This document shows, piece after piece, positions 24,631 to 56,780 of a DNA stretch of 64,000 nucleotides. Below the pieces are notes generated by a model that saw only the letters and a program-made list of their open reading frames with translations, made no database searches and was not told the origin of the DNA. The translations under genes were made by a program, and so were the position numbers. Position 1 is the first letter of the stretch. Every line of letters begins with the position of its first letter. This stretch comes from Candidatus Sumerlaeota bacterium (GTDB lineage: Bacteria > Sumerlaeota > Sumerlaeia > Sumerlaeales > Sumerlaeaceae), in the NCBI GenBank assembly GCA_017161655.1, contig JADFCV010000004.1, positions 75,378-139,377 of the forward strand, read 5' to 3'.

Positions 24631-24640
24631 AATATCTTAG

Positions 24641-24675: not shown

Positions 24676-24935
24676 GTGTTTTTAGATGACTAAAAAGACG
24701 TGACTTGTGGCCTTTGTCGGCAAAAGAACGGCCTCTCCGCTGGGTCGCTAAACGATTTTGTCCCGGTATTTTTTGCGATATTTTCCGTTGGATTCCTTAT
24801 GGCGCCGAGAAAATTGTCCTAAAATGGTCCCCCTTCCCCCCCGTCAGGATTCTTTCCGTGAGTCAGGTGTAGTTGCCTTCGAACGTTGTCTGTTTAGCGA
24901 AGGTTCGGCGATGCACCATCACAAAGGAGGTCGTT

Positions 24936-25943
24936 ATGAGTTTTCGTGCTTATGCTGCACCGGCAGCGGGAAAAGAGCTTGAACCCATTCAGCTCGAGCG
25001 TCCTTCCGAGTTAGGGCCGTTTGATGTCGAAATCCTCGTGGAATGTTGCGGGATCTGTCATAGTGACATTCACCTCATCGATAACGATTGGAGAATTAGT
25101 TCCTACCCGCTCATACCTGGCCATGAGGTTGTAGGTAAGATAGTGCGGAAAGGTGCGCTTGTCCAGAACGTCAAGGAGGGCGACCGTGTCGGCGTGGGAT
25201 GGCAATGCGCATCGTGCCTGGCGTGTGAATGGTGCGAGCGAGGGGAGGAGCCCGCTTGCGACCACCATGTTGCTACGTGTGTAGGGCGCCCAGGAGGCTA
25301 TGCCGAATATCTCATTGCCGACAGTCGGTTTGCTTTTCCTATACCTGAGGCATTGCCCTCCGAGAGCGCAGCGCCGCTTCTATGCGGCGGCATCACGGTC
25401 TTCACCCCGCTGAGCCGCTTTGCCTCGCCAAGCGACCGCGTCGGTGTCATTGGGATCGGGGGGCTAGGCCATCTTGCGCTGCAGTTTGCCCGTGCGATGG
25501 GCTGCGAGGTTACCGCTTTCTCAACTTCCCCTTCAAAAGAAGCTGAGGCGAAGCGTTTGGGAGCGCATCACTTCGTCGTTTCGACGGATGAGAAGGCGAT
25601 GAAGGCACTTGCCAATTCGTTCGATCTCATTCTTTCCACGGTTACCGCGGACTTGAACTGGCCGATGTGGCTGAGTCTTGTGCGGAAACACGGTCGGCTG
25701 CAGCTTGTGGGAGCCTCGCCAGGAAATATCAGCGTGCCAGTGATGCAGCTCGTGGGAGGTCAAAAGACGATCAGCGGAACGATCATCGGCGGCCGCGCTG
25801 GCATCCGCAAAATGCTCGCTTTCGCTGCGCGGCATGGGGTGCGAGCTCAGGCGGAAGTGCTGCCACTCGATCGCGTGAATGAGGCCGTTGCGCGTGTTCG
25901 CGCTAATCAGGCTCGCTACCGCATGGTGCTCAAAGTGCAGTAA
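24936..25943 (+). CDS. Zinc-dependent NAD(P)-alcohol dehydrogenase (cinnamyl-alcohol dehydrogenase/YahK-like MDR)
   Basis: CGICHSD catalytic Zn motif, GHE, structural Zn Cys tetrad (CASCLACEWC...C), GIGGLGH Rossmann. AAGGAGG ribosome-binding site before the ATG at 24936. Confidence 0.85.
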   Translation: MSFRAYAAPAAGKELEPIQLERPSELGPFDVEILVECCGICHSDIHLIDNDWRISSYPLIPGHEVVGKIVRKGALVQNVKEGDRVGVGWQCASCLACEWCERGEEPACDHHVATCVGRPGGYAEYLIADSRFAFPIPEALPSESAAPLLCGGITVFTPLSRFASPSDRVGVIGIGGLGHLALQFARAMGCEVTAFSTSPSKEAEAKRLGAHHFVVSTDEKAMKALANSFDLILSTVTADLNWPMWLSLVRKHGRLQLVGASPGNISVPVMQLVGGQKTISGTIIGGRAGIRKMLAFAARHGVRAQAEVLPLDRVNEAVARVRANQARYRMVLKVQ

Positions 25944-43100: not shown

Positions 43101-43135
43101 AGGCCAGGAGTGTCAGCTGAAAAACGCCATGTCAA
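40130..43135 (-). CDS. Large polytopic membrane protein, YfhO-like (putative glycosyl-carrier-lipid-dependent glycosyltransferase)
   Basis: About 13 N-terminal TM segments, central and C-terminal extracytoplasmic beta-rich region, C-terminal TM anchor. Topology resembles YfhO. 1001 aa. Confidence 0.65.
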   Translation of the reverse strand: MTWRFSADTPGLMPDQARDSNARIRILRSLLLDSLSLLMTSVIILGFYAPRFSPHASFVLGDGLEQNVPHRVYATLRIQQGHLPEWSDMTFGGYPFLSDPQTAVFFPPYALMELAGWIPDTSKRFDAVALGFVLFAGLGATALARAVGVARVGAIAAGVFFALNGYMVNHLSHTVITSAIAALVWGMFFLVLAIRHEMRRAWWAAALCLGASVLAGHWQTAMFGWYATAVLGLYLAITKAWRARSLKSGLEALIGCGVVFSVAALVSLVQVLPTLEFLQHSTREKLGLSDALVYSLPLKQITGLLMPGLYQPLFWRIPPENRWELCWRTWGIDGGWEFHFWVGIVAVAFMLFGLFTTAKRPSSWCLAGALVFTLIASMGEDFGLYRWLFFHVPGFRQIRIPPRMLWVGYLAAALLLGRGIASVASLPRWPWRKWGSIGTLSVLVALVGILAYIVAWSLFLTGDWASALEMLLVINPNYRIGVHRSLEEFLGDIRAQAFVGGGFLACAMIWLWLAGRLRSRSWVLGPIALVLLTGELTIYGLYKNIRTDSAGFDSAVTPMHALLGESISGRLHAWSPGPWEKNTGEVSGIPMTWGYNPMILRWTHRSFPPEEPTHGWRSRENVLDVWNVSHVAVPTSRALVRAPGFEHDLELVAGMGGVYLARGSDQLSSAAHFRVRSKELAAVVLVTSAMGVVAEVDGTTVGLLSLLSPSGGEITSFPLRLGQETAEWVYFAPELNPKPAHSAPPVAYTETCDFSSTPTTYFLARFELAPTTAPICAIRIQSQLDAPRWFSVSHVIEVSKDHGVLAHPAVEALGYEPAPSRDPAKWLYFRRPRPLGWAWLVPEALPVSYKSDLRFVRELLDSPTWDPQRTVLVDKKGFETTETVTAQNARQVDNFHGKVEIEHPYPELWRIRTKSNDRGWLVISKTWYRGWRGIVDGREVPPVRANGSFTALAVPEGEHLVELRYATPWLWVGAPLSAAGWLIALFLGLVGGWAPWIRYKR

Positions 43136-43677
43136 CCCGCCAGCTATGAAATCGGGAGTGCATCATTTTCCGAACCTCACCCAGAGGCAGAAAAACAGAC
43201 GCGTTTAGGGCGTGTAACGCTTGTTCTCTGACAAAGCGCGCAAAACCACAAGAAACTTTTCTTCTCACCTCATGATGGTCCTACAGAGAAATTCTGAGCC
43301 AACGACGCATCGCCTTACGGGGCGAAACGGCTCTCTCTCGGGCGTTTAAAATTTTGGGGCGCTGCCTCTCTCCTGAGGTAGTTCCAGGTACAGGGAGAAG
43401 ACTGGACGCGCTCTCAGCCCCGCCGGGAGTGCCTTAAGAAAACCTCTGACCTCGTGTTTCTCTCGTTTCCTGTCTGCCTTGACTTTGTTCCTGCCATTAG
43501 AGAAATTTGTCTCTAGGTTTGGTTGCGGGCGCGTCCCTTATCGCCCAACGCCCCGCTGCTCCTGCCACACTGTTGAATGAAACACGGTGGCGTGGGACCA
43601 GGCCACGAGCGAGACTAGCCCAGGGCATCGGAGCCAGTCTCGGTGGAGCGCAACCTCAACTCGAAAGGAGATTATCC

Positions 43678-44337
43678 ATGAACCTCCTCAAAGAAATAGC
43701 CGACCTTGTGGCGATGGGGCATCCCGATTCTCAGTCGAAGTATCCGCCTTCGCTGGCAGGTCAGCCCGGCGTTGCCGAGAAAGTGTCGCAGGCACTTTCC
43801 GAAGGCATCGAGCCTCAATGCATTCTCACCCAGGGGCTCATGGCCGGGATGGAAGTTGTTGGACGTCGTTTCGGTGCAGGAGAAATCTTTGTGCCGGAAG
43901 TATTGATGGCGTCGAAAGCCATGAAAGCTGGGGTAGAACTTCTCAAGCCGCACTTAGCAAGTGCCAGCGTTAGTCGGCGAGGGGTTTTCGTCCTCGGCAC
44001 TGTGCAGGGCGACGTCCATGACATCGGGAAGAATCTTGTGAAAATTCTCACCGAGGGTGCCGGCTGGGATGTGGTGGACCTGGGAACCTGTGTTCCGGCA
44101 GAGAAGTTCGTCGAAGCCGTGCGGCAGTATCGACCAGTTGCGGTAGGTCTCTCTGCACTTCTTACCACCACAATGCAAGAAATGCCTAAGGTGATCGAAT
44201 CCTTGCGGCAATCTGATCTAGACGTGCCGGTCATAGTTGGCGGTGCCCCCGTCAACGAATCCTTTGCGCGAAGCATAGGAGCAGAATATGGCCGGGATCC
44301 ACAAGCAGCTGTAGAATTCCTCAGCGCGCTAAATTAG
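43678..44337 (+). CDS. Standalone cobalamin (B12)-binding protein (B12-binding_2 cap plus Rossmann B12-binding domain)
   Basis: DxHxxG motif (GDVHDIGKN), SxL (LSALL), GG (IVGGAP). AAAGGAG ribosome-binding site before the ATG at 43678. 219 aa. Confidence 0.8.
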   Translation: MNLLKEIADLVAMGHPDSQSKYPPSLAGQPGVAEKVSQALSEGIEPQCILTQGLMAGMEVVGRRFGAGEIFVPEVLMASKAMKAGVELLKPHLASASVSRRGVFVLGTVQGDVHDIGKNLVKILTEGAGWDVVDLGTCVPAEKFVEAVRQYRPVAVGLSALLTTTMQEMPKVIESLRQSDLDVPVIVGGAPVNESFARSIGAEYGRDPQAAVEFLSALN

Positions 44338-44461
44338 AGAAATCATTCTCTAATTTCTCCGCAAAATTTGCGTGTTTCTGTGAGGCCATTGCCGGGTTGA
44401 GGCAAGAAAATTGTCAGAAATTGAGATAAATCGCGAATAATTTCTCTATTGGAGGATTATA

Positions 44462-45223
44462 ATGAGTGCGAAACGAGAAAAAATTCTCGAATCAAAGGCG
44501 AGAAAGAGCCAGGAAGAACTGATGGGAGCCGTCACACTCGAAAACATCACGAGCGACCCAAGAAGCCAGACGGTGCCCACGCCTTCTCTCCGGCGCCTCC
44601 CGCTCTATCTCCGGCTCCTCAGGGACTACCAAGCCCAGGGCCGCACGGTTGTCTCATGCACGCAACTCGCATCGGACCTGCGCTTCGACCCCACTCAGGT
44701 GCGAAAAGACCTCGCCCTCACGAAGGTCGGTGGTCGGCCCAAAGTTGGCTACCCCATTGCGGAGCTTATCGCTGCCATCGAAGACTTCCTCGGGTGGCGC
44801 CGGACTATCGAGGCGGTTCTTGTCGGAGTGGGCAGTCTGGGGACGGCACTCCTGGGTTACAACTTCTCGCTCTATGGTTTGAGCATTGTCGGAGCCTTCG
44901 ACTCTGCACCGGACAAGGTCGGGCAGGTTGTCCATGGCCGCGAAATCATGCCCATTGGCTACCTCACCAACTTTATCCGACAGCGCGGGATCCCGATGGG
45001 CATTCTCACTGTGCCCGCAAGCGCCGCGCAAAGCGTGGCGGAAATGATGGTGGCCGGCGGCGTAAAAGCGATTTGGAACTTCACAAGCGCCGCTTTGCAG
45101 TTACCTGACCACGTTCTGGTCGAACGTGCAGATTTCTCCGCCAGCCTGGCTGTGCTCACCCGTGCCCTTGCTCACGGTGCGCGATCCTTGGCCCCGACTA
45201 TCCCTAAAAAGGAGGTCACCTAG
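44462..45223 (+). CDS. rex: Redox-sensing transcriptional repressor Rex
   Basis: Rex wHTH (LPLYLRLLRDY) plus CoA/NAD-binding Rossmann (VLVGVGSLGTALLGY). Stop is 8 bp before hydC. Confidence 0.88.
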   Translation: MSAKREKILESKARKSQEELMGAVTLENITSDPRSQTVPTPSLRRLPLYLRLLRDYQAQGRTVVSCTQLASDLRFDPTQVRKDLALTKVGGRPKVGYPIAELIAAIEDFLGWRRTIEAVLVGVGSLGTALLGYNFSLYGLSIVGAFDSAPDKVGQVVHGREIMPIGYLTNFIRQRGIPMGILTVPASAAQSVAEMMVAGGVKAIWNFTSAALQLPDHVLVERADFSASLAVLTRALAHGARSLAPTIPKKEVT

Positions 45224-45231
45224 GACCAGCT

Positions 45232-45750
45232 ATGGCTCCATGCCTTTGCGAAGCAACCCGCACATCGGATAAAGTCCGTTTTCAGCAAGTCTGCGAAATC
45301 CTCGAACGTTTCGAGCGCAACCCGAATCTCCTGGTACCCATCCTTCAGCAAGTTCAACAGGTTTATCGGTACCTTCCTCCCGAAATCCTTGAGTTTGTTG
45401 CGACCTCTCTAAATCTTCCCGCCGCCCATGTCTATGGGGTGGCCACGTTCTATGCTCATTTTACCCTCGAACCCAAAGGCAAGCACCTCATCAAAGTCTG
45501 CGACGGAACAGCGTGCCATGTGAAAGGATCCACCCAGATCCTTGAAGCCTTGCGCCAGCATCTTCAGCTAAAAGATTCGGCCAACACCACCGAGGATATG
45601 CAGTTCACCGTTGAAACGGTTTCGTGCCTTGGTGCGTGTGGTCTCGCCCCTGTCGTTGTCATCGACGACGACGTTCACGGGAATCTCTCTCCGGCCCAGG
45701 CAGTGCAACTCGTGGACCAAACCGCTTGCGAAAAGGAGGAAGAGCAATGA
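45232..45750 (+). CDS. hydC: [FeFe]-hydrogenase NuoE-like subunit (thioredoxin-like [2Fe-2S] ferredoxin)
   Basis: NuoE/HndA family Cys pattern (CDGTAC...CLGACGLAPVV). Confidence 0.85.
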   Translation: MAPCLCEATRTSDKVRFQQVCEILERFERNPNLLVPILQQVQQVYRYLPPEILEFVATSLNLPAAHVYGVATFYAHFTLEPKGKHLIKVCDGTACHVKGSTQILEALRQHLQLKDSANTTEDMQFTVETVSCLGACGLAPVVVIDDDVHGNLSPAQAVQLVDQTACEKEEEQ

Positions 45751-47678
45751 CGAGCACTGTCCAGGTCGATTTAGAAACTTTCGTCGAACAATATCAAAAG
45801 GCGGCCGCACAGATTCGACAGCGAATCATTGTCTGCGCTGGAACGGGGTGCGTCGCGAGTGGGTCGCTCAAAGTCTACGAAAGATTTGTTCGAGAGCTCC
45901 AGCTGTGGGGGCTCGACGTCGATGTTGAGCTACGCGTGGAAGCGAATGAAGAAGCGCCAGACCATGCGCAGCCGAGTCCGTCGAAGTACCTGGTCACTCG
46001 CAGCGGGTGCCAAGGGTTTTGCCAGATGGGACCGCTGGTCTCGATCCTTCCTCAAAAGGTCTTCTATGTCCGCGTCAAACCTGAAGACGTTCCTGAAATT
46101 GTCCAGAAAACGCTCCTCGGCGGCGAAACGGTGGACCGCCTACTCTATCAGGACCCAAAGACGAAGAAACGCGCGGTCAACACAGATCACATCGACTTTT
46201 ACAAAAAGCAACATCGCTTAGTGTTAGCCCAGTGCGGGGTTATTGATCCCGAAAACATCGATGAGTATCTTGGGATTGGCGGATACCAGGCTGCACGGCG
46301 CGCATTTACCCAAATGTCGCCCGAGCAGATCTGCAAAATCATCACCGACTCTGGTTTGCGCGGCCGTGGTGGCGGAGGCTTCCCCACCGGCGTGAAGTGG
46401 GATGCTGCACGCAAACAACCGGGCGACACAAAGTATGTGATTTGCAACGGTGACGAGGGCGACCCGGGAGCTTTCATGGACCGCAGCGTGATGGAGGGCA
46501 ACCCCCATGCCGTGCTCGAAGGGATGATGATTGCCGCCCGAGCAATTGGGGCTCACGCCGGCTACATCTACGTACGAGCCGAATATCCCCTCGCTGTGCA
46601 GCGCCTACGCCGAGCCATCCAGGATGCTTATGAGCTGGGTTTGCTCGGTGAGGATCTCTTCGAAACGGGTTACGCTTTCGACATTGAGCTTATGGAAGGT
46701 GCTGGGGCTTTCGTGTGCGGCGAGGAAACGGCGCTCATCGCCTCCATCGAGGGCCAGCGCGGTATGCCTAGACCCAAACCTCCTTTTCCAGCCCAAGCTG
46801 GACTCTGGGGGAAGCCGACCGTGATCAACAACGTGGAGACTCTTGCCACCGTTCCCCTTATCCTGCGCCATGGCCCCGAGAAATTCCGTGCCCTCGGCAC
46901 GCCTTCCAGCCCAGGGACCAAGACCTTTGCCCTCACCGGGCACGTGCCTAATACGGGGCTCATCGAGGTGCCTTTTGGTGCCACACTGCGCCAGATTATT
47001 TTCGATATTGGAGGAGGCGTCACTGACGCCAGAGGACGCATCCGCGAGGACGCTTTCAAGGCCGTGCAAATTGGCGGACCTTCGGGCGGATGTCTGACTC
47101 GCGAGCACCTCGACCTGCCGCTCGATTTCGATAGCCTCAAAAGCGTTGGGGCGATGGTGGGCTCCGGTGGACTCGTTGTCATGAATTCGCAAACCTGCAT
47201 GGTGCAGGTGGCGCGCTTCTTCATGCAATTCACTCAGAACGAAAGCTGTGGCAAATGCGTTCTCTGCCGTGAAGGCACAAAGCAGATGCTCGCCTTGCTG
47301 GACGAGATCATCGAAGGTCGCGGCACGCAGCAGACCCTCGAGTTGCTCGAAATAGTCGCTCGTACGGTCCAAAAGGGCTCGCTTTGCGGTCTCGGCAAGA
47401 CTGCGCCAAATCCGGTCCTCTCGACACTGCGTTACTTCCGGAAGGAATACGAGGCCCACATCGAGTTCAAACGCTGTCCCGCGGGGCAGTGCAAAGCGCT
47501 GGCTGTTCCCACGATCCTAGCAGAGCGTTGCCGTGGCTGCGGCCTCTGCATTCGTGCGTGCCCCGTCGGCGCCATCACAGGTGAGCGCAAAAAACCGCAT
47601 GTGATTGACCAAGATCGCTGCATACGCTGCGGGGCCTGCTTCACCGCCTGCAAACTCGACGCCATAACCTATGCCTAA
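45747..47678 (+). CDS. hydB: [FeFe]-hydrogenase NuoF-like subunit (NADH/FMN-binding, Fe-S)
   Basis: N-terminal [2Fe-2S] domain, FMN/NADH site (GRGGGGFPTGVKW), SLBB, NuoF 4Fe-4S, two C-terminal ferredoxin motifs. ATGA overlap with hydC. Confidence 0.9.
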   Translation: MTSTVQVDLETFVEQYQKAAAQIRQRIIVCAGTGCVASGSLKVYERFVRELQLWGLDVDVELRVEANEEAPDHAQPSPSKYLVTRSGCQGFCQMGPLVSILPQKVFYVRVKPEDVPEIVQKTLLGGETVDRLLYQDPKTKKRAVNTDHIDFYKKQHRLVLAQCGVIDPENIDEYLGIGGYQAARRAFTQMSPEQICKIITDSGLRGRGGGGFPTGVKWDAARKQPGDTKYVICNGDEGDPGAFMDRSVMEGNPHAVLEGMMIAARAIGAHAGYIYVRAEYPLAVQRLRRAIQDAYELGLLGEDLFETGYAFDIELMEGAGAFVCGEETALIASIEGQRGMPRPKPPFPAQAGLWGKPTVINNVETLATVPLILRHGPEKFRALGTPSSPGTKTFALTGHVPNTGLIEVPFGATLRQIIFDIGGGVTDARGRIREDAFKAVQIGGPSGGCLTREHLDLPLDFDSLKSVGAMVGSGGLVVMNSQTCMVQVARFFMQFTQNESCGKCVLCREGTKQMLALLDEIIEGRGTQQTLELLEIVARTVQKGSLCGLGKTAPNPVLSTLRYFRKEYEAHIEFKRCPAGQCKALAVPTILAERCRGCGLCIRACPVGAITGERKKPHVIDQDRCIRCGACFTACKLDAITYA

Positions 47679-47702
47679 GCCAAACAGTCAGGAGTGTGAG
47701 TC

Positions 47703-49739
47703 ATGACTCCCCAAGTGCACCAAAACAAACTTCTCATAGACGGACGAGAAGTCACCTTTAGTCGCGAACGCAATCTGCTCGAAGTTTGCCGTAAGGCAGA
47801 CATCGACATCCCCACATTTTGCTATCACTCCCACCTCAGCATTTACGGAGCTTGCCGCTTGTGCCTCGTGGAAGTGGAGGGACTCGGCATTGTCACTTCT
47901 TGCACCACTGTGCCCAAGCCCGACATGCGCGTGCGAACCACCTCGCCGGAAATCCGCGAAATGCGTCGTGTCGCTGTCGAACTCTTGCTAGCCAGCCACG
48001 ACCGCGACTGTCCGACCTGCCCCAAAAACGCCACTTGTAAATTGCAATCCATAGCACGCCGCCTTGGCGTCCGCGAAGTGCGTTTCAAAACAACTGTGCA
48101 AGGCATGCCTCTGGATAAATCCTCTCCGGCTATCGAACGGAATCCAAACCGCTGTATCCTGTGCGGCGACTGTGTCCGCGTTTGTCGAGAGATTCAGTCC
48201 GTCGGAGCAATCGATTTTGCTTTCCGCGGCAGCAAGACTGTGGTCGCGCCTGCCCTTGGCCGTCCGCTTGGCGCCAGTGAGTGTGTGCATTGCGGCCAAT
48301 GTGCTGCTGTTTGCCCCACTGGCGCGATTGTACCCAAGAGTGAAATCGAAGAAGTGTGGCAGGCTTTGGCCGACCCTGAGAAAAAGGTCATTGCCCAAAT
48401 TGCACCCGCAGTGCGCGTCGCGATCGGTGAGGCGTTTGGGCTGCCTAGCGGCACCGTGGCCACAGGGCAAATCGCAGCCGCGCTGCGAAGGCTTGGCTTC
48501 GTCCAGGTTTACGACACCTCTTTTGCAGCTGATCTTACGGTAATCGAAGAGGGCACAGAGTTTCTCAACCGCAAGCAACGCGGCGGAAATCTGCCGATGT
48601 TCACATCCTGTTGTCCGGCGTGGGTGAAATTCGCTGAGCAATACTATCCCTCCCTGCTTGGGAATCTCAGTTCTTGCCGTTCCCCGCAGCAAATGTTTGG
48701 TTCTCTCGCGAAGGCAACCTTGCCGGCTGCGCTCGGCATCAAGCCCGAGCAGCTTGTTTGCGTCTCGATTATGCCTTGCACCGCGAAGAAGTTTGAGGCG
48801 CGCCGACCAGAATTCGAGCGAGACGGAATCCGGGACGTCGACTATGTTTTGACCACTCAAGAGCTCATTGCCATGATTGAGGCACAGGGGTTTGATCTCG
48901 CCAGCCTGCGTCCTGAGCCGATGGACCTTCCCTTTGGTCAAAAATCTGGAGCCGGAATCATCTTCGGAACGTCAGGCGGCGTCGCTGAGGCCGTCCTTCG
49001 CTACGTTCTCTCCAAGACTTATGCCACTGATCTTGCCCGCATCGAATTCCAGGAAGTGCGAGGTTCCGAAGGGACTCGTGAGGCGACGGTCGAAATTGGG
49101 GGCGCTCCCATCCGTATTGCTGTGGTGCATGGACTTGCTCAGGCGCGCCGCCTTGCGGAAAAAGTCATCGCTGGCGAAACTTCTTACGACCTTGTCGAAG
49201 TCATGGCATGTCCGATGGGCTGTGTGGGCGGGGCTGGTCAACCAGTTGCCACGCGCCGCAACACTCTGGCAAAGCGGGCGGCTGCACTCTATGACATTGA
49301 CCGGTGCGTCGAAATCCACACTCCCCAGCAGAATCCAGCGATCGTGGAGTGCTACCGCGACGTCCTCAAGGCTCCGGCTAGTCCGAAAGCGCACGAACTG
49401 CTGCACACTCACTACGTCAGCCGTCGACGTGTCATCGCCGAGCCACTAGAAATTGCATGCCCCAAAGAAGCGCGAATCGAGGTTACGGTTTGTGTGGGAA
49501 CAAACTGTTTTCTGCGCGGGAGCCGACAGCTTCTCGACGAAATTGTGCGAGCTGTACAGGCCCGTGGCTGGGCAGAAAAAGTAGCAGTCAAAGGAACGTT
49601 CTGCTTTGAGAATTGCCGCAAAGGGCCAAACGTGGCCGTGGGCAAAAAGCTGATCAGCGAGGCAACAGCAGATGTGGTTCTCCAGGAAATCGAGAACCAG
49701 CTGCCCCAAAAAGAAAACCGCGAACTGGCCGTGAGGTAG
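47703..49739 (+). CDS. hydA: [FeFe]-hydrogenase catalytic subunit HydA (group A3-type; C-terminal small-subunit-like and [2Fe-2S] domains)
   Basis: Canonical H-cluster motifs L1 FTSCCPAW, L2 MPCTAKKFE, L3 EVMACPMGCVGGAGQP. N-terminal [2Fe-2S] and 4Fe-4S domains. C-terminal NuoE-like [2Fe-2S] domain. Confidence 0.9.
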   Translation: MTPQVHQNKLLIDGREVTFSRERNLLEVCRKADIDIPTFCYHSHLSIYGACRLCLVEVEGLGIVTSCTTVPKPDMRVRTTSPEIREMRRVAVELLLASHDRDCPTCPKNATCKLQSIARRLGVREVRFKTTVQGMPLDKSSPAIERNPNRCILCGDCVRVCREIQSVGAIDFAFRGSKTVVAPALGRPLGASECVHCGQCAAVCPTGAIVPKSEIEEVWQALADPEKKVIAQIAPAVRVAIGEAFGLPSGTVATGQIAAALRRLGFVQVYDTSFAADLTVIEEGTEFLNRKQRGGNLPMFTSCCPAWVKFAEQYYPSLLGNLSSCRSPQQMFGSLAKATLPAALGIKPEQLVCVSIMPCTAKKFEARRPEFERDGIRDVDYVLTTQELIAMIEAQGFDLASLRPEPMDLPFGQKSGAGIIFGTSGGVAEAVLRYVLSKTYATDLARIEFQEVRGSEGTREATVEIGGAPIRIAVVHGLAQARRLAEKVIAGETSYDLVEVMACPMGCVGGAGQPVATRRNTLAKRAAALYDIDRCVEIHTPQQNPAIVECYRDVLKAPASPKAHELLHTHYVSRRRVIAEPLEIACPKEARIEVTVCVGTNCFLRGSRQLLDEIVRAVQARGWAEKVAVKGTFCFENCRKGPNVAVGKKLISEATADVVLQEIENQLPQKENRELAVR

Positions 49740-49745
49740 CTCACC

Positions 49746-51530
49746 ATGGTCCCGCAAGCGCTCCAGAAACCGCCGCTCATATCCACAAATCGCGCCAAGT
49801 GTCGCGACTGTTACCGTTGCGTCCGGATGTGCCCCGTTAAGGCTATTCGGATGAAGGACGGCCAGGCACAGGTGGTGGAGGAGCGGTGCCTCTTCTGTGG
49901 CACCTGTGTGCGGGAGTGCCCTCAAAAGGCTAAAACCATTCGCGACGACACGACGTGGGCCATGGAGCTCCTGGCGCAACGCAAGAAGGTCGCCGCCAGC
50001 GTCGCTCCGACCTATCCAGCAGCCTTTGCAGAGCACGAGGTTCGTCGCCTTGCCAGCGCGCTGCGAAAGCTTGGCTTCGCCTACGTGGGCGAGACGTCTG
50101 TGGGTGCCGATGCTGTGGCTGTGGCCACATCCCGGTGGCTTGCAGAAAACCGCGAGCGCCAGCCGTTGGCTGTGACCAGTGCATGTCCTACCGCCATCCG
50201 CTACATCGAGCTTTACGCACCCGAATCTGTTAGCAGCGTCGTGCCTCTCGTCTCGCCCATGATTGCCCATGCGAAGCATTTGCGGCAGGAAATCGGCGCC
50301 GATGCTGTTGTGTTCATTGGCCCTTGTATCGCCAAGAAATTTGAAGCACAGCGGCCAGAGCATGCTGGACTTGTGGACTGCGTGCTCACCTTTGCGGAGT
50401 TGCGCTCCTGGCTCGAACGCGAAGGTATAGTCTTCGAGCAACTGGAAGAAAGTCGGTTTGATGAAGAAGGTTCCCCGCGCGGGCGTCGCTTTCCTTTGGC
50501 AGGTGGACACCTCCACGCGTCCGAACTTCCCAGCGACCTGCTTCAGCCCGAGGTCTGTGCCGTGACCGGTGTCGAGGCTTTACGGGAATGCTTATCGTTA
50601 GGCGTGCCAGAGCACCCAACAGTTGTTGAGCCTCTTTTCTGTGATGGCGGTTGCATAGGTGGTCCGGGAATCGGATGGGAGGAAAACCATTTTCGACGCA
50701 GACTGCGCGTGTTAGCCCATGCGGCTCGCGCTGCACGGACAAACGGAAAAACCCAAGTACCAGCGCCCACTCCGAAGCTGCTTCAGGGACTGAAAACCAC
50801 TTACCAGCCCCAACCTGTTGACCGCACTTCCCCCAGCGAGGACGCAATTCGCCGCGCCCTTGCCCAGATCGGAAAAATTGATCCACGTGATCAGCTCGAT
50901 TGCGGGGCGTGCGGTTATCGTTCCTGCCGCGAGAAAGCCATCGCCGTGGTACGCGGGCTTGCTGAGCCTGAAATGTGCATGCCTCGTATGCGACTGCTTG
51001 CTGAGCGGCGCATGGATCGCATTATGGAAACGAGCCCCAACGGGATCGTGATTCTCGATCACGAGTTGCGTATCATTGCCATGAATCCGGCGTTCCAAAA
51101 AATGTTCCTGTGTTCTCACCTCGTCCTCGGTCGGCACATCTCATATCTTACAGACGCAACCCCCTTCGAGCAATTGCTTGCCAGTCGTTGCGGCAAGCTG
51201 GAGCGAACAGCGTCGGAACCACGCTACGGCAGAATCTTCCACCAAATCGTTTACGCCCTGGAAGAAGACCAGCAAATCGTCGGGATCTTCGTTGATATCA
51301 CAGAAAGTAGCTTGAACCGCGAAAAGCTGGCGATTGTGCACCGAGAGGCTCTCGATCGTAGCAGGCAACTTCTTGAGCACCAAGTTCGTATGGCCCAGGA
51401 CATCACTCGACTCCTTGCCGAACACACGGCGCACGGCGAGGAGCTCGTGAAAAGCTTGCTTGAAGCAGCACTCGTCGAACCCCACGCCAGCGTTGCCTCA
51501 CACATGGCACTGGCACACAAAGATGCTTAG
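49746..51530 (+). CDS. hydS: HydS-like putative sensory [FeFe]-hydrogenase with C-terminal PAS domain
   Basis: N-terminal 2x[4Fe-4S] ferredoxin. H-domain with degenerate motifs TSACPTA (Cys to Ala), IGPCIAKKFEA (Met to Gly), EPLFCDGGCIGGPGI (Met to Leu). C-terminal PAS-like region. Confidence 0.8.
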   Translation: MVPQALQKPPLISTNRAKCRDCYRCVRMCPVKAIRMKDGQAQVVEERCLFCGTCVRECPQKAKTIRDDTTWAMELLAQRKKVAASVAPTYPAAFAEHEVRRLASALRKLGFAYVGETSVGADAVAVATSRWLAENRERQPLAVTSACPTAIRYIELYAPESVSSVVPLVSPMIAHAKHLRQEIGADAVVFIGPCIAKKFEAQRPEHAGLVDCVLTFAELRSWLEREGIVFEQLEESRFDEEGSPRGRRFPLAGGHLHASELPSDLLQPEVCAVTGVEALRECLSLGVPEHPTVVEPLFCDGGCIGGPGIGWEENHFRRRLRVLAHAARAARTNGKTQVPAPTPKLLQGLKTTYQPQPVDRTSPSEDAIRRALAQIGKIDPRDQLDCGACGYRSCREKAIAVVRGLAEPEMCMPRMRLLAERRMDRIMETSPNGIVILDHELRIIAMNPAFQKMFLCSHLVLGRHISYLTDATPFEQLLASRCGKLERTASEPRYGRIFHQIVYALEEDQQIVGIFVDITESSLNREKLAIVHREALDRSRQLLEHQVRMAQDITRLLAEHTAHGEELVKSLLEAALVEPHASVASHMALAHKDA

Positions 51531-52668
51531 TCTTTACGCAGAAATAGAGGCAGCCGATATCCCGAAAGTCGCCAACGGGATTAGCGGCGACGTCCTCGTA
51601 ACGTTGCGCTATCCCGAGTCCACCTACGTCATGTTAGCTGACGGGCTTAAGAGCGGTATCCACGCCAATCTCGCTGCTCAGTTTGCGTTGGCACGTCTGC
51701 AGGCAAAACTCGAGTGCGGCGCCCCACTCAGCCATGCACTTGCGGACATTCTAACCACTCTCGAGGAAAACCGGCGGAAACTTTCTCTATGGAGTGCGCT
51801 CAGCATTGCCCACATCTTGCCCTCAGGAGCGACGACGGTCTACGCATACGAGATGCCGGATCCTCTTGCTCTCATGCGACGCCGGCTTCACCCCGTTCCT
51901 GCAGAGCACCTCAATCTCGGTGGCGCACTCATTGCCAAATACAACCTGGAACTCAACGAAAACGACGGGCTTCTGCTTTTCTCCGATGGCGTCACACAAG
52001 CGGGTGTTGGAAATGGCCTGACCTGGGGGTGGGGCATCGATGGAATTCGCCGCGAAGGAGAGTTTTTCATCGCCAGCGATTCACTGCGCCGTCTGCCGCA
52101 TTTCCTCGTGCAGCGAGCCAGACAACTTTCAAGTGAGGAGCAATCCGATGATGCCACAGCGGTTTTGGTGCTCCTGCGGCGCGCCAAGCGCGTTGTCGTG
52201 TTCACGGGTCCACCTTCTGATCCCGCTAAGGACTCAGAAATTGTCCAGCAGTTCCTTTCATCTGAAGGCACAAAGATTGTTTGCGGAGGAACAACTGCCG
52301 GCATCGTGGCGCGTGTTCTGGGCACAGAGGCAATTGTCGATCCGAAATCGCTTCACCCATATTGCCCTCCTCGTCTCATTCTCGATGGTGTGGACTATGC
52401 CACCGAGGGAGCCGTGTGCTTAAATCAGCTCTACAATCTCCTCGATGCCGCCCCCACCGCCGTAGAAGAGCGCAACATCGTTGTTCAGCTTTACGAGGAA
52501 TTCATCCGTGCGGACCACATCACGTTCTTGGTGGGGAAATCAGAAAACCCGGCAACAGCTTCTCAGCCCTTTTTTCAAATGGGCATTCTCCGACGCCAGC
52601 AGATTGTCCCTCTCCTCGCGGACAAACTGCGCACGTTGGGGAAGCTCGTCACTATAGAATGGGTCTAA
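51523..52668 (+). CDS. PP2C-type (SpoIIE/RsbU-like) Ser/Thr phosphatase with uncharacterised ~180-aa C-terminal alpha/beta domain
   Basis: PPM motifs (GISGDVL...ADGLKSGIHANLAAQ...DGLLLFSDGV). 8-bp overlap with the hydS stop. C-terminal half (IVCGGTTAGIVARVLG) has no assignable family. Confidence 0.7.
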   Translation: MLSLYAEIEAADIPKVANGISGDVLVTLRYPESTYVMLADGLKSGIHANLAAQFALARLQAKLECGAPLSHALADILTTLEENRRKLSLWSALSIAHILPSGATTVYAYEMPDPLALMRRRLHPVPAEHLNLGGALIAKYNLELNENDGLLLFSDGVTQAGVGNGLTWGWGIDGIRREGEFFIASDSLRRLPHFLVQRARQLSSEEQSDDATAVLVLLRRAKRVVVFTGPPSDPAKDSEIVQQFLSSEGTKIVCGGTTAGIVARVLGTEAIVDPKSLHPYCPPRLILDGVDYATEGAVCLNQLYNLLDAAPTAVEERNIVVQLYEEFIRADHITFLVGKSENPATASQPFFQMGILRRQQIVPLLADKLRTLGKLVTIEWV

Positions 52669-52680
52669 AAGATAAGAAAA

Positions 52681-52756
52681 TGGAGCTGGCGGTCGGATTC
52701 GAACCGACGACCTGCTGATTACAAGTCAGCTGCTCTGCCAGCTGAGCTACGCCAGC
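52681..52756 (-). tRNA. tRNA-Thr (anticodon UGU), CCA-encoded
   Basis: Cloverleaf folds by hand: 7-bp acceptor, GCTC/GAGC D-stem, anticodon loop CTTGTAA, TTCGAAT T-loop. 76 nt including CCA. Confidence 0.85.
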
Positions 52757-52799
52757 ATCCTTAAGAGTTCCGCCAAAGCGTACCGAGAAAAGCCGAAGT

Positions 52800-53390
52800 T
52801 TATTTTTGCCCGGAGGATTTCCCTTCTGCGTTCAGAGCTTCGGGCAATCGGCACAAGACCACGCGATCTTCGCCATCCACTTCCGTCAGGCGCACCTGCA
52901 CAACTTGCGAGTAGTCCGTTTCAATGCGGCGCGCGACGTAATCTGGTTGGATCGGATATTCGCGCAGCCCACGGTCCACAATCACAAGAAGTCGAATCAG
53001 GCGCGGACGCCCAAAATCCACAATTTCATCCAGCCCTGCGCGGATTGTGCGACCGGTGAAAATCACGTCGTCAATCAGGACGATTTTTTTGTCCGTCACA
53101 TCAAAATCGATAGCTGTCTTGCCGACGACCGGTTGCGGCCCAAGCGTTGACAGGTCATCGCGATACAATGTGATGTCAATCTCGCCCGTTTGCACCTTCT
53201 GTCCGTGGTTCTCCTCCAGGAGGCGTGCGATTCGCTGACAAAGATAAATGCCACGGGTCTTGATTCCCAGAAGTACCAGCTGCGGATCATGAGGAAAATC
53301 GCGGTGGAGCGTAGCGGCCAGCAGCGCGAGCTCGCGCGCCAGGTCGTCCGCTTCCATAATGACACGTTCTATTGGAAAATTCTCAGCCAA
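52800..53390 (-). CDS. pyrR: Bifunctional pyrimidine operon regulatory protein / uracil phosphoribosyltransferase
   Basis: PRTase motif KIVLIDDVIFTGRTIRA. PyrR-like length and N-terminus. Confidence 0.88.
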   Translation of the reverse strand: MAENFPIERVIMEADDLARELALLAATLHRDFPHDPQLVLLGIKTRGIYLCQRIARLLEENHGQKVQTGEIDITLYRDDLSTLGPQPVVGKTAIDFDVTDKKIVLIDDVIFTGRTIRAGLDEIVDFGRPRLIRLLVIVDRGLREYPIQPDYVARRIETDYSQVVQVRLTEVDGEDRVVLCRLPEALNAEGKSSGQK

Positions 53391-53551
53391 GGCAGCTCAC
53401 CTTTCCCTAAGTTTTTTGTGCCGTGTTCGCCATGCCGCAACACAGCCGCATGAGCCGTACGCTTTGCTCGGAATCATCCGATCCAAACGCAAGAACAAAG
53501 TGCATCATGACGTCTTTCTGGCTTGTCCTTCGTCTCCGCTGACCCCAAGCG

Positions 53552-54460
53552 TCACTTCAGAAGATCGCTGAGAGCCACATCCAGTGTGGGATGTACGAAC
53601 GCATAGTTTGTTGTCTGGAGTCGCACAGGAATGACGCGTGAGCTGGCCAAAAGCATCTCTTCCGCCATTTCACCCATGAGCAGCCGCAGGATAAAGCCAG
53701 GTGCATGGAAAAATGCTGGTCGATGGAGCGCCCGCGCCAGCAAGCGTGTGAACTCAGCATTACGCACAGGCTCCGGTGCAGTGAAATTCACTGGCCCCTG
53801 CAGCTCATCGTGAGACAGAGTGTGGAGAATGCCGCCGACCACATCGCGAATCGAGATCCAGCTCCACCATTGCTGACCGGACCCTAAACGTCCGCCAAGC
53901 CCCGCGCGAAAAATCGGCAGCATTTGGGCAAGCGCACCGCCTTCGCGCCCCAGCACGATGCCAAAGCGCAGATTCACCACCCGTGTTCCAAGCTCTGTGG
54001 CTTTCTGCGCAGCCGCTTCCCATTCGCGAGCCACCTCGACAAGAAAACCACGGGACCCTGGAGTGCTTTCCTCGGTTAGCAGCTCTTCGCCGCGGTTGCC
54101 GTAATAACCAATGGCCGATGCGCAAAGAAATACTCGCGGCGGCCGTTCGAGCCGACGCAAGGATTCAACAAGGTTGCGTGTCCCCTGAATGCGACTGGTC
54201 CGGATACGTTCCTTTTTTGCCGAAGTCCAGCGCAAGCTTCCAGCAATGCTTTCTCCCGCCAGGTGGACCACCGCATCGCATCCTTCAAGCCGGGAGACGT
54301 CGGAAACACCTTCTTCGACTGACCAGGCCAGTTCGTTTGCTGCGCCAGTAGTCCGGCGGACAAGCCGCAGCACTTCTGCGTGTTGTTCTTCAAGCGCTGC
54401 TGCCACCGCTCGCCCTATGAACCCTGTTGCTCCTGTCATGGCAATACGCATCAGTGCCAC
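53552..54460 (-). CDS. TIGR01777/YfcH-like SDR (NAD-dependent epimerase fold with C-terminal DUF1731)
   Basis: N-terminal GATGFIG Rossmann. C-terminal DUF1731-like segment (RLLMGEMAEEMLLASSRV). Confidence 0.8.
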   Translation of the reverse strand: MALMRIAMTGATGFIGRAVAAALEEQHAEVLRLVRRTTGAANELAWSVEEGVSDVSRLEGCDAVVHLAGESIAGSLRWTSAKKERIRTSRIQGTRNLVESLRRLERPPRVFLCASAIGYYGNRGEELLTEESTPGSRGFLVEVAREWEAAAQKATELGTRVVNLRFGIVLGREGGALAQMLPIFRAGLGGRLGSGQQWWSWISIRDVVGGILHTLSHDELQGPVNFTAPEPVRNAEFTRLLARALHRPAFFHAPGFILRLLMGEMAEEMLLASSRVIPVRLQTTNYAFVHPTLDVALSDLLK

Positions 54461-56736: not shown

Positions 56737-56780
56737 GGCTCCGAACCTCCTCGCCGGGCGTAAGGCTTCATTCTCTTCTC

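What the first reader, a model, noticed from the sequence alone, without database searches (positions are those of the whole stretch)
44462..52668. Rex-controlled trimeric [FeFe]-hydrogenase cluster with an embedded sensory hydrogenase and phosphatase
Five genes run head-to-tail with 8 bp to -8 bp junctions: rex, hydC (NuoE-like), hydB (NuoF-like), hydA, a HydS-like sensory hydrogenase, and a PP2C phosphatase. HydA carries the full catalytic H-cluster signature. HydB carries FMN/NADH-binding and Fe-S motifs. The architecture matches NADH- or ferredoxin-dependent (electron-confurcating/bifurcating) hydrogenases. Rex lies immediately upstream and suggests NADH/NAD+ control. HydS-PP2C couples the enzyme to a putative H2-sensing phosphorelay. 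This combination has been described only in a handful of Thermotogae and Firmicutes, and here it sits in a high-GC diderm genome. The downstream signalling partner (kinase or anti-sigma antagonist) is missing from the cluster, which ends at a tRNA.
Basis: partly seen in the sequence, partly recalled or inferred. Interest (0 to 1): 0.7.

Follow-up and report, generated by a model that had tools for sequence, protein, structure and literature searches.

The report
Hydrogenase operon with sensor and phosphatase
This is a normal, intact copy of a six-gene hydrogenase cassette (Rex repressor, three-subunit NADH/ferredoxin [FeFe]-hydrogenase, hydrogen-sensor-like hydrogenase, protein phosphatase); the cassette is common in many bacterial phyla rather than rare, and how its sensor signals is still unknown.

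Summary
Six co-directional genes (the finding says five) fill 44462-52668: rex, hydC, hydB, hydA, hydS and a PP2C phosphatase. Junctions are +8, -4, +24, +6 and -8 bp. HydA has intact H-cluster motifs. HydB and HydC match solved electron-bifurcating HydABC enzymes over their full length. HydS has the group C (M2f, TmHydS-like) architecture.

The rarity claim fails. HydS relatives occur in at least 563 species genomes. In the top 84 loci, from more than 10 mostly diderm phyla, hydS-pp2c adjacency is 84/84. The exact six-gene order is found in 46 of 63 loci with enough upstream DNA. The window is probably from Sumerlaeota.

The "missing partner" is the rule, not a peculiarity. No kinase or STAS gene lies next to any cassette examined, including hfs-type Firmicute loci.

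Rex control is supported only through a non-canonical operator. No canonical Rex box lies upstream. Three TNGAGAA-N4-TTCTCNA palindromes sit at -125, -29 and +13 of rex. They are conserved as footprints, and the motif is enriched upstream of rex across phyla (21 observed, 0.14 expected).

The phosphatase carries an unannotated Rossmann-like C-terminal domain that, among its 150 best matches, occurs only in this ~380-aa architecture.

Verdict: a new member of a known kind, of moderate interest.

The parts
44335..44352 (.). Operator-like palindrome 1, TAGAGAAATCATTCTCTA, centred about -120 of the rex ATG and overlapping the stop of the upstream corrinoid-protein gene
   Evidence: Perfect 7-4-7 palindrome. 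Conserved at the same position in L002, L003 and L004 while the flanking intergenic DNA has diverged.
44431..44448 (.). Operator-like palindrome 2, TCGCGAATAATTTCTCTA, immediately 5' of the rex ribosome-binding site
   Evidence: Orthologous sites are TAGAGAATAATTTCTCTA (L002), TCGAGAATAATTTCTCTA (L003) and TCGAGAATAAATTCTCCA (L004).
44473..44490 (.). Operator-like palindrome 3, ACGAGAAAAAATTCTCGA, within codons 4-10 of rex
   Evidence: zero mismatches to GWGAA-N4-TTCWC. Identical in L002 and near-identical in L003.
44462..45223 (+). rex: NAD(H)-sensing winged-helix repressor (253 aa, with a ~35-aa N-terminal extension). It belongs to a hyd-linked subfamily with the recognition helix/wing sequence VRKDLALTKVGGRPKVG.
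   Evidence: NF003994, 261.7 bits, cutoff 130; aligns with B. subtilis, T. maritima and T. aquaticus Rex; GVGSLG Rossmann motif present; subfamily signature.
45232..45750 (+). hydC: NuoE-like [2Fe-2S] subunit (172 aa)
   Evidence: PF01257, 1.2e-50. (HoxE/NuoE models).
45747..47678 (+). hydB: NuoF-like FMN/NADH subunit (643 aa) with an N-terminal [2Fe-2S] domain and a C-terminal 2x[4Fe-4S] domain. Its start overlaps the hydC stop by 4 bp.
   Evidence: full-length alignment to the B subunits of solved bifurcating enzymes 7t2r_B, 8a6t_B (residues 8-640), 7p5h_B and 7q4v_B.
47703..49739 (+). hydA: catalytic [FeFe]-hydrogenase subunit (678 aa). Order of parts: N-terminal 2Fe-2S, 4Fe-4S clusters, H-domain with intact L1-L3, SSU-like segment, then a C-terminal thioredoxin-like [2Fe-2S] domain as in T. 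maritima HydA.
   Evidence: TIGR02512, 498.8 bits, cutoff 405.95; NF040763 'group A6', 738 bits, just below its cutoff of 765; 8a6t_A 3.9e-174; 7p5h_A aligned across residues 9-664.
49746..51530 (+). hydS: group C (M2f)-type putative sensory [FeFe]-hydrogenase (594 aa). Order of parts: 2x[4Fe-4S], H-domain (TSACP, GPC, LFCDGGC), 4-Cys PF04060 cluster, PAS, helical tail.
   Evidence: A146 aligns with the proton-transfer Cys, G192 with CpI M353 and L297 with M497; the cluster-ligand Cys residues are kept; these residues are invariant in 23 relatives; published group C criteria.
51523..52185 (+). PP2C (SpoIIE/RsbU-type) phosphatase domain of the 381-aa protein. Its start overlaps the hydS stop by 8 bp.
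52183..52668 (+). C-terminal ~160-aa Rossmann-like domain of the phosphatase. It is unannotated. Its motifs are FTGPP..D, KIVCGGTTA and TEGA.
52681..52756 (-). tRNA-Thr(TGT), convergent; it marks the 3' boundary of the cassette

Best explanation
The region is one operon-like cassette from a probable Sumerlaeota genome.

- HydABC. It encodes a T. maritima-type HydABC [FeFe]-hydrogenase. That enzyme type couples NADH and reduced ferredoxin to H2 by electron confurcation or bifurcation. The architecture is shown here; the bifurcating activity is inferred from full-length homology to solved bifurcating enzymes.
- Rex. The first gene is a Rex repressor. Rex most likely binds the three T-N-G-A-G-A-A-N4-T-T-C-T-C-N-A palindromes around its own start and releases them when NADH/NAD+ rises. 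The hydrogenase would then be made when reducing equivalents must be disposed of. The operators are shown as conserved, enriched footprints; their binding by Rex and the NADH response are inferred.
- HydS. The last two genes form a translationally coupled pair. HydS is a slow, group C sensor-type hydrogenase. Its proton-transfer Cys is replaced by Ala, and it has a C-terminal 4-Cys cluster and a PAS domain. It is inferred to report H2 partial pressure.
- The phosphatase. HydS is inferred to pass its signal, probably by direct contact, to a catalytically competent PP2C phosphatase. This phosphatase has no N-terminal regulatory domain. Instead it carries a dedicated Rossmann-like C-terminal domain, which is a likely docking or small-ligand module (inferred).
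- The target. The phosphatase then changes the phosphorylation state of a target encoded elsewhere in the genome or within the cassette. This would give H2 feedback on hydrogenase expression or activity and on fermentation balance. The target and the sign of the response are unknown.
For: - Gene content, order and junctions.
- HydA H-cluster motifs, and HydA/HydB full-length alignment to bifurcating HydABC structures 8a6t, 7p5h, 7q4v and 7t2r.
- HydS substitutions A146, G192 and L297 with all four cluster Cys retained, plus PF04060 and PAS. These match the published description of group C (M2f) sensors.
- PP2C catalytic Asp residues are invariant, and the fold matches SpoIIE.
- hydS-pp2c are adjacent in 84/84 loci. 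The gene calls of hydS and pp2c overlap in all eight related contexts examined, and in the window's own copy L001. The exact six-gene order occurs in 46/63 loci with enough upstream DNA, across more than 10 phyla.
- Operators: three sites at conserved positions in four genomes that share 70-85% protein identity, inside otherwise diverged intergenic DNA. There are 21 exact GWGAA-N4-TTCWC matches in 54 rex-upstream regions, against 0.14 in dinucleotide shuffles. The rate is 2.16 per kb upstream against 0.097 per kb elsewhere in the same loci. Hybrid GAGAA/GTGAA half-sites within single palindromes link the motif to the canonical Rex box.
- Genetics in T. saccharolyticum: deleting the HydS homologue hfsB changes ethanol yield and hydrogenase activity only if hfsC (the PP2C homologue) and hfsD are intact. 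This supports a regulatory role.
Against: - No experiment anywhere has shown H2 sensing by a group C enzyme in vivo; reviews call the role putative.
- In the related group D enzyme TamHydS, the C-terminal [4Fe-4S] cluster is not reduced by H2. This argues against a simple redox relay through that cluster.
- No kinase, STAS or RsbW partner is present in the window or next to any cassette examined, so the phosphatase substrate is unknown.
- The operator differs from the canonical Rex box at two positions per half-site. Canonical boxes occur elsewhere in the same window (24593, 24615). A different regulator could therefore bind one of the two site types.
- Some trimeric HydABC-like enzymes are NADH-only and do not bifurcate. 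Sequence cannot settle this.
- HydA scores just below the NCBIfam 'group A6' cutoff (738 against 765).
- No hydEFG maturase genes are in the window.
Confidence: 0.7

Rival explanations
1. HydS and the PP2C-like protein are not a signalling pair. Instead they are accessory or structural parts of the hydrogenase: an extra low-activity H2-activating or electron-input module, with an assembly or maturation factor.
For: - The pair always sits beside a catalytic hydrogenase: HydABC here, and a group-B-like enzyme in hfs-type Firmicute loci.
- No kinase or transcription-factor partner is linked other than Rex.
- In T. saccharolyticum, deleting the whole hfs operon lowers hydrogenase activity.
- The phosphatase's C-terminal domain most resembles cofactor-binding domains of redox enzymes.
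Against: - PAS domain in HydS.
- The proton-transfer Cys is lost, as in the slow TmHydS.
- All PP2C metal ligands are invariant across 43 homologues, which argues for real phosphatase chemistry.
- Deleting hfsB alone raises hydrogenase activity rather than lowering it.
Confidence: 0.12
2. The GAGAA-type palindromes are bound by a regulator other than the adjacent Rex, for example a CRP/FNR-type or unknown factor. In that case Rex acts only at canonical boxes elsewhere, or is itself merely a regulated gene.
For: - No canonical Rex box with 3 or fewer mismatches lies upstream of rex or hydC.
- Canonical TTGTGAA-type boxes do exist in the same window in front of Rrf2-hdrCBA-mvhDGA.
- Only 27 of 54 rex-upstream regions have a site at one mismatch or fewer.
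Against: - The motif has the same 7-4-7 geometry and the same GAA-N4-TTC core as Rex boxes.
- Single sites in several phyla mix GAGAA and GTGAA halves.
- The motif tracks rex as the first gene of the cassette in unrelated flanking contexts.
- The hyd-linked Rex proteins share an altered recognition helix/wing, which fits an altered half-site.
- Rex autoregulation is well known.
Confidence: 0.15
3. The HydABC enzyme is a non-bifurcating NADH-dependent hydrogenase, like those of Syntrophomonas wolfei and Syntrophus aciditrophicus, rather than a ferredoxin-plus-NADH confurcating one.
For: - Such enzymes look similar overall.
- The best NCBIfam name for HydA is 'NADH-dependent [FeFe] hydrogenase, group A6'.
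Against: - HydB retains the N-terminal [2Fe-2S] domain and the C-terminal 2x[4Fe-4S] domain. It aligns end to end with B subunits of structurally characterised bifurcating complexes.
- HydA carries the T. maritima-type C-terminal [2Fe-2S] domain.
- The published remark that non-bifurcating HydB differs in the flavin subunit was not tested here residue by residue.
Confidence: 0.15

Closest known systems
Thermotoga maritima HydABC (PDB 7P5H) with HydS (TmHydS, group C/M2f) in the same operon
   Same: - Trimeric NuoE/NuoF/HydA architecture, including the fused C-terminal [2Fe-2S] domain of HydA (aligned to residue 664) and full-length HydB.
- HydS has N-terminal clusters, an H-domain lacking the proton-transfer Cys, Gly at the CpI M353 position, a C-terminal 4-Cys cluster and PAS.
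   Different: - Leu rather than Ser at the CpI M497 position (compared).
- Here the gene order is rex-hydCBA-hydS-pp2c as one compact block, in a diderm phylum. The exact gene order of the T. maritima operon was not examined here.
hfsABCD operon of Thermoanaerobacterium saccharolyticum; equivalent loci L088 and L089 were examined here
   Same: - A HydS-like protein is followed, with overlapping gene calls, by a ~380-aa PP2C carrying the same C-terminal domain (31-33% identity over 96-99% of its length).
- Rex is nearby in L088.
- No kinase is in the operon.
- Genetic evidence supports a regulatory role.
   Different: - hfs loci pair the sensor and phosphatase with small 2Fe-2S proteins and a monomeric group-B-like hydrogenase, not with HydABC.
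- Those small 2Fe-2S genes are absent from the window.
Rex regulons that include hydrogenase genes (Thermotogales, Clostridia, Caldicellulosiruptor)
   Same: - rex lies next to, and probably autoregulates with, [FeFe]-hydrogenase genes.
- The operators are 18-bp palindromes with a GAA-N4-TTC core.
   Different: - The half-site is T-N-G-A-G-A-A instead of T-T-G-T-G-A-A.
- The Rex recognition helix/wing reads VRKDLAxTGIxGKPKVG instead of the canonical ...SYFG..G(K/R)(K/R)G.GY.
SpoIIE/RsbU/RsbP partner-switching PP2C phosphatases
   Different: - No N-terminal regulatory domain.
- A unique C-terminal Rossmann-like domain.
- No linked STAS substrate or RsbW-type kinase.
Group D (M2e) putative sensory hydrogenase TamHydS
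   Same: N-terminal clusters, a modified H-cluster environment and a C-terminal [4Fe-4S] cluster.
   Different: Group D lacks the PAS domain that is present here.

Membership tests
[FeFe]-hydrogenase group A3 (trimeric HydABC, bifurcating type) | HydA H-domain with intact L1 (TSCCP), L2 (MPCxxKxxE) and L3 (ExMxCxxGCxxGxGQP) motifs | tested here: met
   FTSCCPAW, MPCTAKKFEA and EVMACPMGCVGGAGQP align with 8a6t_A and 7p5h_A. Fe_hyd_lg_C 2.7e-95. TIGR02512 scores above its cutoff.
[FeFe]-hydrogenase group A3 (trimeric HydABC, bifurcating type) | Adjacent NuoF-like HydB (FMN/NADH site, N-terminal 2Fe-2S, C-terminal 2x4Fe-4S) and NuoE-like HydC | tested here: met
   Pfam domains. HydB aligns across residues 8-640 with 8a6t_B and equally with 7p5h_B, 7q4v_B and 7t2r_B. 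hydC and hydB overlap by 4 bp.
[FeFe]-hydrogenase group A3 (trimeric HydABC, bifurcating type) | Synergistic use of NADH and ferredoxin (electron bifurcation/confurcation) | not testable with these tools
   This needs an enzyme assay. Non-bifurcating look-alikes exist.
[FeFe]-hydrogenase group A3 (trimeric HydABC, bifurcating type) | NCBIfam exception model NF040763 'NADH-dependent [FeFe] hydrogenase, group A6' scored above its cutoff | tested here: not met
   738.1 bits against a cutoff of 765. This is a near miss over model positions 2-571. The broader group A model TIGR02512 is passed.
Group C (M2f) putative sensory [FeFe]-hydrogenase (TmHydS type) | H-cluster-ligand Cys residues kept, but the proton-transfer Cys (CpI C299) replaced, and a small residue at the CpI M353 position | tested here: met
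   TSACP (A146) and GPC (G192); C147, C194, C299 and C303 are retained.
Group C (M2f) putative sensory [FeFe]-hydrogenase (TmHydS type) | N-terminal 2x[4Fe-4S], C-terminal 4-Cys cluster and a PAS domain | tested here: met
   Fer4 pairs, PF04060 at residues 383-413 and PAS_8/PAS at residues 422-520. C386, C389, C394 and C411 are invariant. Definition.
Group C (M2f) putative sensory [FeFe]-hydrogenase (TmHydS type) | Low turnover and H2-dependent signalling | not testable with these tools
   The role is putative even for the model enzymes.
Rex (redox-sensing repressor) | Winged-helix N-domain plus NAD(H)-binding Rossmann domain; curated equivalog model passed | tested here: met
   PF06971 + PF02629. 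NF003994 scores 261.7 against 130. GVGSLG motif and alignment to 2vt2, 5zz5 and 3ikt.
Rex (redox-sensing repressor) | Canonical operator TTGTGAA-N4-TTCACAA in the controlled promoter | tested here: not met
   No match with 3 or fewer mismatches in the rex/hydC upstream region. The variant TNGAGAA-N4-TTCTCNA is present three times and is conserved.
Rex (redox-sensing repressor) | NADH-sensitive DNA binding | not testable with these tools
   This needs EMSA with NADH and NAD+.
PP2C/SpoIIE-family Ser/Thr phosphatase | PPM fold with conserved metal-binding aspartates | tested here: met
PP2C/SpoIIE-family Ser/Thr phosphatase | Linked partner-switching substrate (STAS) and kinase (RsbW type) | tested here: not met
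   None in the 64-kb window. None next to the eight related cassettes examined.
hfsABCD-type operon | Small 2Fe-2S proteins and a monomeric group-B-like hydrogenase flanking HydS-PP2C | tested here: not met
   These are present in L088 and L089. They are absent here, where HydABC takes that place.

The most novel reading that the evidence does not exclude
The six-gene block may be a self-contained sense-and-respond module with two inputs, conserved across more than 10 phyla.

- Rex reads NADH/NAD+ through a subfamily-specific operator (GAGAA type).
- HydS reads H2 and controls a kinase-independent or cassette-internal phosphatase circuit.
- The phosphatase's dedicated, so far undescribed Rossmann-like C-terminal domain would bind a nucleotide-type ligand or dock onto HydS, Rex or HydB.
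- The phosphatase target would therefore be one of the cassette's own proteins. One candidate is the hyd-linked Rex, whose recognition helix/wing carries a subfamily-specific but not invariant Thr. Another is a HydABC subunit.

If so, this would finally give a defined output for group C 'sensory' hydrogenases.
Probability: 0.2. Interest if true: 0.65.

Novelty: new member of a known kind. Interest (0 to 1): 0.4.

Why it matters
For the locus itself, this is a routine annotation. It gives a Sumerlaeota-like genome a group A3 [FeFe]-hydrogenase with its regulator genes. A published survey of that phylum found group A3 in only one genome.

The wider value lies in what the comparison shows. The output pathway of 'sensory' [FeFe]-hydrogenases is an open question. 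Three observations narrow the search for the signalling target and give concrete experiments:
- HydS is always coupled to one particular two-domain phosphatase.
- No kinase travels with the pair.
- The whole block usually starts with a distinctive Rex that has its own operator variant.

Tried and rejected
- **Canonical Rex box.** A search in the promoter found no match with 3 or fewer mismatches there. The only match near it, at 44036, lies inside the corrinoid-protein gene and is consistent with chance.
- **Promoter and terminator scan of 43000-53600.** Counts were no higher than in shuffles, so the scan says nothing about co-transcription.
- **Rfam scan of the window.** It returned only the two tRNAs. 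There is no riboswitch in the 540-bp region upstream of the corrinoid-protein gene.
- **AFDB Foldseek search.** The library was unavailable.
- **hydEFG maturases and Ser/Thr kinase, STAS or RsbW partners in the window.** None were found. The radical-SAM gene at 8362-9621 is a TIGR04053/AhbD-like SPASM protein, not HydE or HydG.
- **Naming the source organism by exact protein look-up.** The sequences are on an unnamed 363-kb NCBI contig and on Logan contigs. Taxonomy therefore rests on 70-85% identity and shared flanks with Candidatus Sumerlaeaceae-like contigs.
- **Rex as the phosphatase target via a conserved Thr.** The Thr in the recognition helix/wing is common but not invariant, so this stays speculative.
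- **Literature.** The Rex regulon paper (Ravcheev 2012) and the Greening 2016 paper are not held in the library. The HydDB sub-grouping into C1-C3 could therefore not be verified and is not used.

Full report
**1. What is in the sequence**

Six ORFs lie head to tail on the + strand at exactly the coordinates given:

| Gene | Coordinates |
|---|---|
| rex | 44462-45223 |
| hydC | 45232-45750 |
| hydB | 45747-47678 |
| hydA | 47703-49739 |
| hydS | 49746-51530 |
| PP2C phosphatase | 51523-52668 |

The junctions are +8, -4, +24, +6 and -8 bp. A convergent tRNA-Thr(TGT) follows 12 bp after the last stop. The finding says "five genes" but lists six, and the hydB-hydA gap of 24 bp is outside its stated range.

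Pfam and NCBIfam confirm every assignment:
- Rex passes a curated equivalog model (261.7 bits, cutoff 130).
- HydC is a NuoE-type [2Fe-2S] protein.
- HydB has the FMN/NADH module, the NuoF 4Fe-4S site, a C-terminal double 4Fe-4S domain and a weak N-terminal thioredoxin-like 2Fe-2S domain.
- HydA has Fe_hyd_lg_C (2.7e-95), the small-subunit segment, the N-terminal cluster domains and an extra C-terminal thioredoxin-like 2Fe-2S domain.
- HydS has two Fer4 motifs, Fe_hyd_lg_C (3.4e-49), the PF04060 4-Cys motif and a PAS domain.
- The last protein has a SpoIIE-type PP2C domain at residues 33-216 and nothing annotated in residues ~220-381.

**2. The catalytic enzyme**

HydA aligns over its full length with the A subunits of solved electron-bifurcating HydABC complexes:
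- T. kivui 8a6t, E = 3.9e-174.
- T. maritima 7p5h, aligned across residues 9-664, which includes the C-terminal [2Fe-2S] domain.
- A. woodii 7q4v.

The three H-cluster motifs are intact. HydB aligns end to end (residues 8-640) with the B subunits of the same complexes and of the bifurcating NiFe-HydABCSL 7t2r. This is therefore a T. maritima-type group A3 enzyme. Bifurcation itself cannot be read from sequence, and non-bifurcating NADH-dependent look-alikes exist. I give that rival about 0.15.

**3. The sensor**

In the alignment to HydA structures, HydS keeps the four cluster-ligand cysteines: C147, C194, C299 and C303. It differs at three other positions:
- Ala (A146) where catalytic enzymes have the proton-transfer Cys.
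- Gly (G192) at the CpI M353 position.
- Leu (L297) at the M497 position.

These residues and the four Cys of the C-terminal cluster are invariant in 23 relatives. The literature defines group C (M2f, TmHydS) by N-terminal clusters, a C-terminal [4Fe-4S] and a PAS domain, whereas group D (TamHydS) lacks PAS. It also reports Gly at the M353 position as typical of sensory enzymes. The window's HydS meets the group C criteria. The sensing role is still called putative in the field. In group D the C-terminal cluster does not respond to H2.

**4. The phosphatase**

The protein has no N-terminal regulatory domain. Instead, residues ~222-381 form a separate, well-conserved domain with the motifs FTGPP..D, KIVCGGTTA and TEGA. 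What is known about this domain:
- It has no Pfam, NCBIfam or PDB sequence match.
- Modelled alone (pLDDT 92.2), it is a Rossmann-like alpha/beta fold.
- A profile search of 1.84 billion representative proteins finds 1089 clusters. The best 150 are almost all ~380-aa proteins with this domain in the same C-terminal position.

The domain is therefore dedicated to this phosphatase family. Its ligand or partner is unknown.

**5. How common is the arrangement?**

The exact HydS sequence is known only from a Logan assembly; the exact phosphatase and Rex sequences also lie on an unnamed 363-kb NCBI contig. The nearest relatives share 70-85% protein identity and have the same flanking genes: YfhO, corrinoid protein, then the cassette, then tRNA, phosphoribosyltransferase, epimerase and malic enzyme. 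They include a Candidatus Sumerlaeaceae MAG. An LpxD gene in the window fits a diderm.

The 80 best came from these groups:
- Sumerlaeota
- Armatimonadota
- Planctomycetota
- Hydrogenedentota
- Riflebacteria
- Synergistia
- Syntrophorhabdaceae and other 'Deltaproteobacteria'
- Delongbacteria
- Kiritimatiellia and Verrucomicrobiota
- Bacteroidota, Ignavibacteria and Melioribacteraceae
- Bacillota

tblastn with the six window proteins gave three results:
- The phosphatase gene lies directly after hydS in 84 of 84 non-duplicate loci.
- The exact order rex-hydC-hydB-hydA-hydS-pp2c occurs in 46 of 63 loci with enough upstream DNA.
- Four more loci lack only rex.

The flanks differ between phyla, so the block behaves as a conserved module. 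The claim that the combination is confined to a handful of Thermotogae and Firmicutes is not supported. A published study had already noted group C next to trimeric group A hydrogenases with Rex in Elusimicrobia, Ignavibacterium and Caldithrix. A Sumerlaeota survey reported a group A3 enzyme in only one genome, so this locus adds modestly to that phylum.

**6. The "missing" partner**

None of the eight annotated contexts has a kinase, STAS or RsbW gene beside the cassette. Neither does the 64-kb window.

The Firmicute relatives of the phosphatase (L088, L089) sit in hfs-type operons. Their order is: small 2Fe-2S protein, HydS, PP2C with the same C-terminal domain, small 2Fe-2S protein, monomeric hydrogenase, and Rex in L088. 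These also lack a kinase.

The called hydS and pp2c genes overlap in all of these contexts, by 4 to 31 bp. This suggests translational coupling and a stoichiometric pair. Genetics in T. saccharolyticum show that the effect of deleting hfsB (the HydS homologue) depends on hfsC and hfsD, and that rex expression co-varies. The absent partner is therefore a general open question rather than a feature of this locus.

**7. Rex control**

A canonical Rex box (TTGTGAA-N4-TTCACAA) is not present upstream of rex or hydC at 3 or fewer mismatches. The intergenic region instead carries a perfect palindrome, TAGAGAAATCATTCTCTA (44335), and two related ones at 44431 and 44473 (6 hits in the window, 1.18 expected, 0 of 100 shuffles).

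In three Sumerlaeaceae-like relatives, sites 1 and 2 lie at the same positions; site 3 is found in L002 and L003 but was not detected in L004 at one mismatch. The positions are about -125 to -137, -29 to -32 and +10 to +13 of the rex ATG. The sites are conserved islands in otherwise diverged DNA.

Across 54 rex-upstream regions from many phyla:

| Measure | Observed | Control |
|---|---|---|
| Exact GWGAA-N4-TTCWC matches | 21 | 0.14 in dinucleotide shuffles |
| Matches with one mismatch allowed | 50 | 2.46 in dinucleotide shuffles |
| Sites per kb (one mismatch allowed) | 2.16 upstream of rex | 0.097 in the rest of the same loci |

Single sites in Synergistia, Melioribacteraceae and other loci mix GAGAA and GTGAA halves. 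GATAA and GTTAA variants also occur. The motif is thus a variant of the Rex box with the same 7-4-7 geometry.

The hyd-linked Rex proteins share a distinctive recognition helix/wing, VRKDLAxTGIxGKPKVG. B. subtilis Rex has IRRDFSYFGALGKKGYGY, and T. aquaticus Rex, from my recollection of its sequence, has IRKDLSYFG..G.RGVGY (for the subfamily signature). I conclude that Rex autoregulation of the cassette is likely (about 0.7-0.8), but through a non-canonical operator. Binding was not tested. Related loci are not fully independent, so the shuffle statistics overstate the significance somewhat.

**8. Elsewhere in the window**

A second hydrogenase locus lies on the minus strand at 16976-24582. 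It reads Rrf2 regulator, HdrC-, HdrB- and HdrA-like proteins, MvhD, [NiFe] small and large subunits, and a maturation protease. This is a group 3c Mvh/Hdr type.

Two tandem canonical TTGTGAA-type boxes sit immediately upstream, at 24593 and 24615, facing a divergent Zn-alcohol dehydrogenase gene. Whether the cassette's Rex, another Rex or a CRP/FNR-type factor binds them is unresolved.

**9. Verdict**

The locus is a new member of a known kind: group A3 HydABC, a group C HydS, an HfsC-like phosphatase and Rex. Three things in it are still worth a specialist's attention:
- The invariant HydS-phosphatase coupling without any kinase.
- The unannotated C-terminal domain of that phosphatase.
- The variant Rex operator and Rex subfamily.

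Interest is 0.4.

Noticed in passing
window 16976-24582 (minus strand) and 24593-24632: There is a second hydrogenase locus: Rrf2 regulator, HdrC/HdrB/HdrA-like proteins, MvhD, [NiFe] small and large subunits (VhuA-like) and a HycI-like protease. This is a group 3c Mvh/Hdr type. Two tandem near-canonical Rex/CRP-type boxes, TTGTGAAAACTTTCACGA and TTGTGATGATTTTCACAA, lie directly upstream of the Rrf2 start. They face a divergent Zn-dependent alcohol dehydrogenase gene (24873-25943).
   Followed up: partly
window 43678-44337 and 43498-43515; L005 3605-4678 and 12982-14067: A corrinoid (B12-binding, MtgC/MtbC-like) protein gene lies immediately upstream of rex and is syntenic in all Sumerlaeaceae-like relatives. 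In the window only, a fourth GAGAA-type palindrome (TAGAGAAATTTGTCTCTA) lies ~180 bp upstream of it. In an Armatimonadota genome the cassette is flanked on both sides by URO-D/MtaA-like methyltransferase genes. This hints at a link between corrinoid methyltransferase systems and this hydrogenase.
   Followed up: partly
L024, L049, L057, L030 (Riflebacteria/Ozemobacteraceae-like and Erysipelotrichia MAGs): These loci carry two hydS-pp2c pairs in tandem. The second pair is only 25-31% identical to the window proteins. An additional HydA-like segment precedes the main hydS.
   Followed up: no
window 52183-52668 (C-terminal domain of the phosphatase): This is a conserved ~160-aa Rossmann-like domain with no Pfam or NCBIfam family. 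It is found in 1089 protein clusters, and the 150 best matches are almost all ~380-aa PP2C proteins of this architecture. It is a candidate for a new domain family definition.
   Followed up: yes
window 37186-39867 (minus strand): An 893-aa multidomain signalling protein with several PAS domains, GAF and an HD-GYP-type HD_5 domain (a likely cyclic-di-GMP phosphodiesterase). It lies about 4.6 kb upstream of the cassette and is not syntenic in other phyla.
   Followed up: no
window 56628-58778 (+) and 62172-63920 (-): Two long ORFs (716 and 582 aa) have no Pfam or NCBIfam match. The first overlaps the start of the malic-enzyme/PTA-domain gene by about 100 bp, so its true start is probably further downstream. 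Its homologue in L003 has only a faint TPR hit.
   Followed up: no
window 44462-44566 (first ~35 codons of rex): The Sumerlaeaceae-type Rex proteins are 246-253 aa and carry a ~35-residue N-terminal extension that is absent from the 213-226-aa hyd-linked Rex proteins of other phyla. Operator-like site 3 lies inside this extension's coding sequence.
   Followed up: partly
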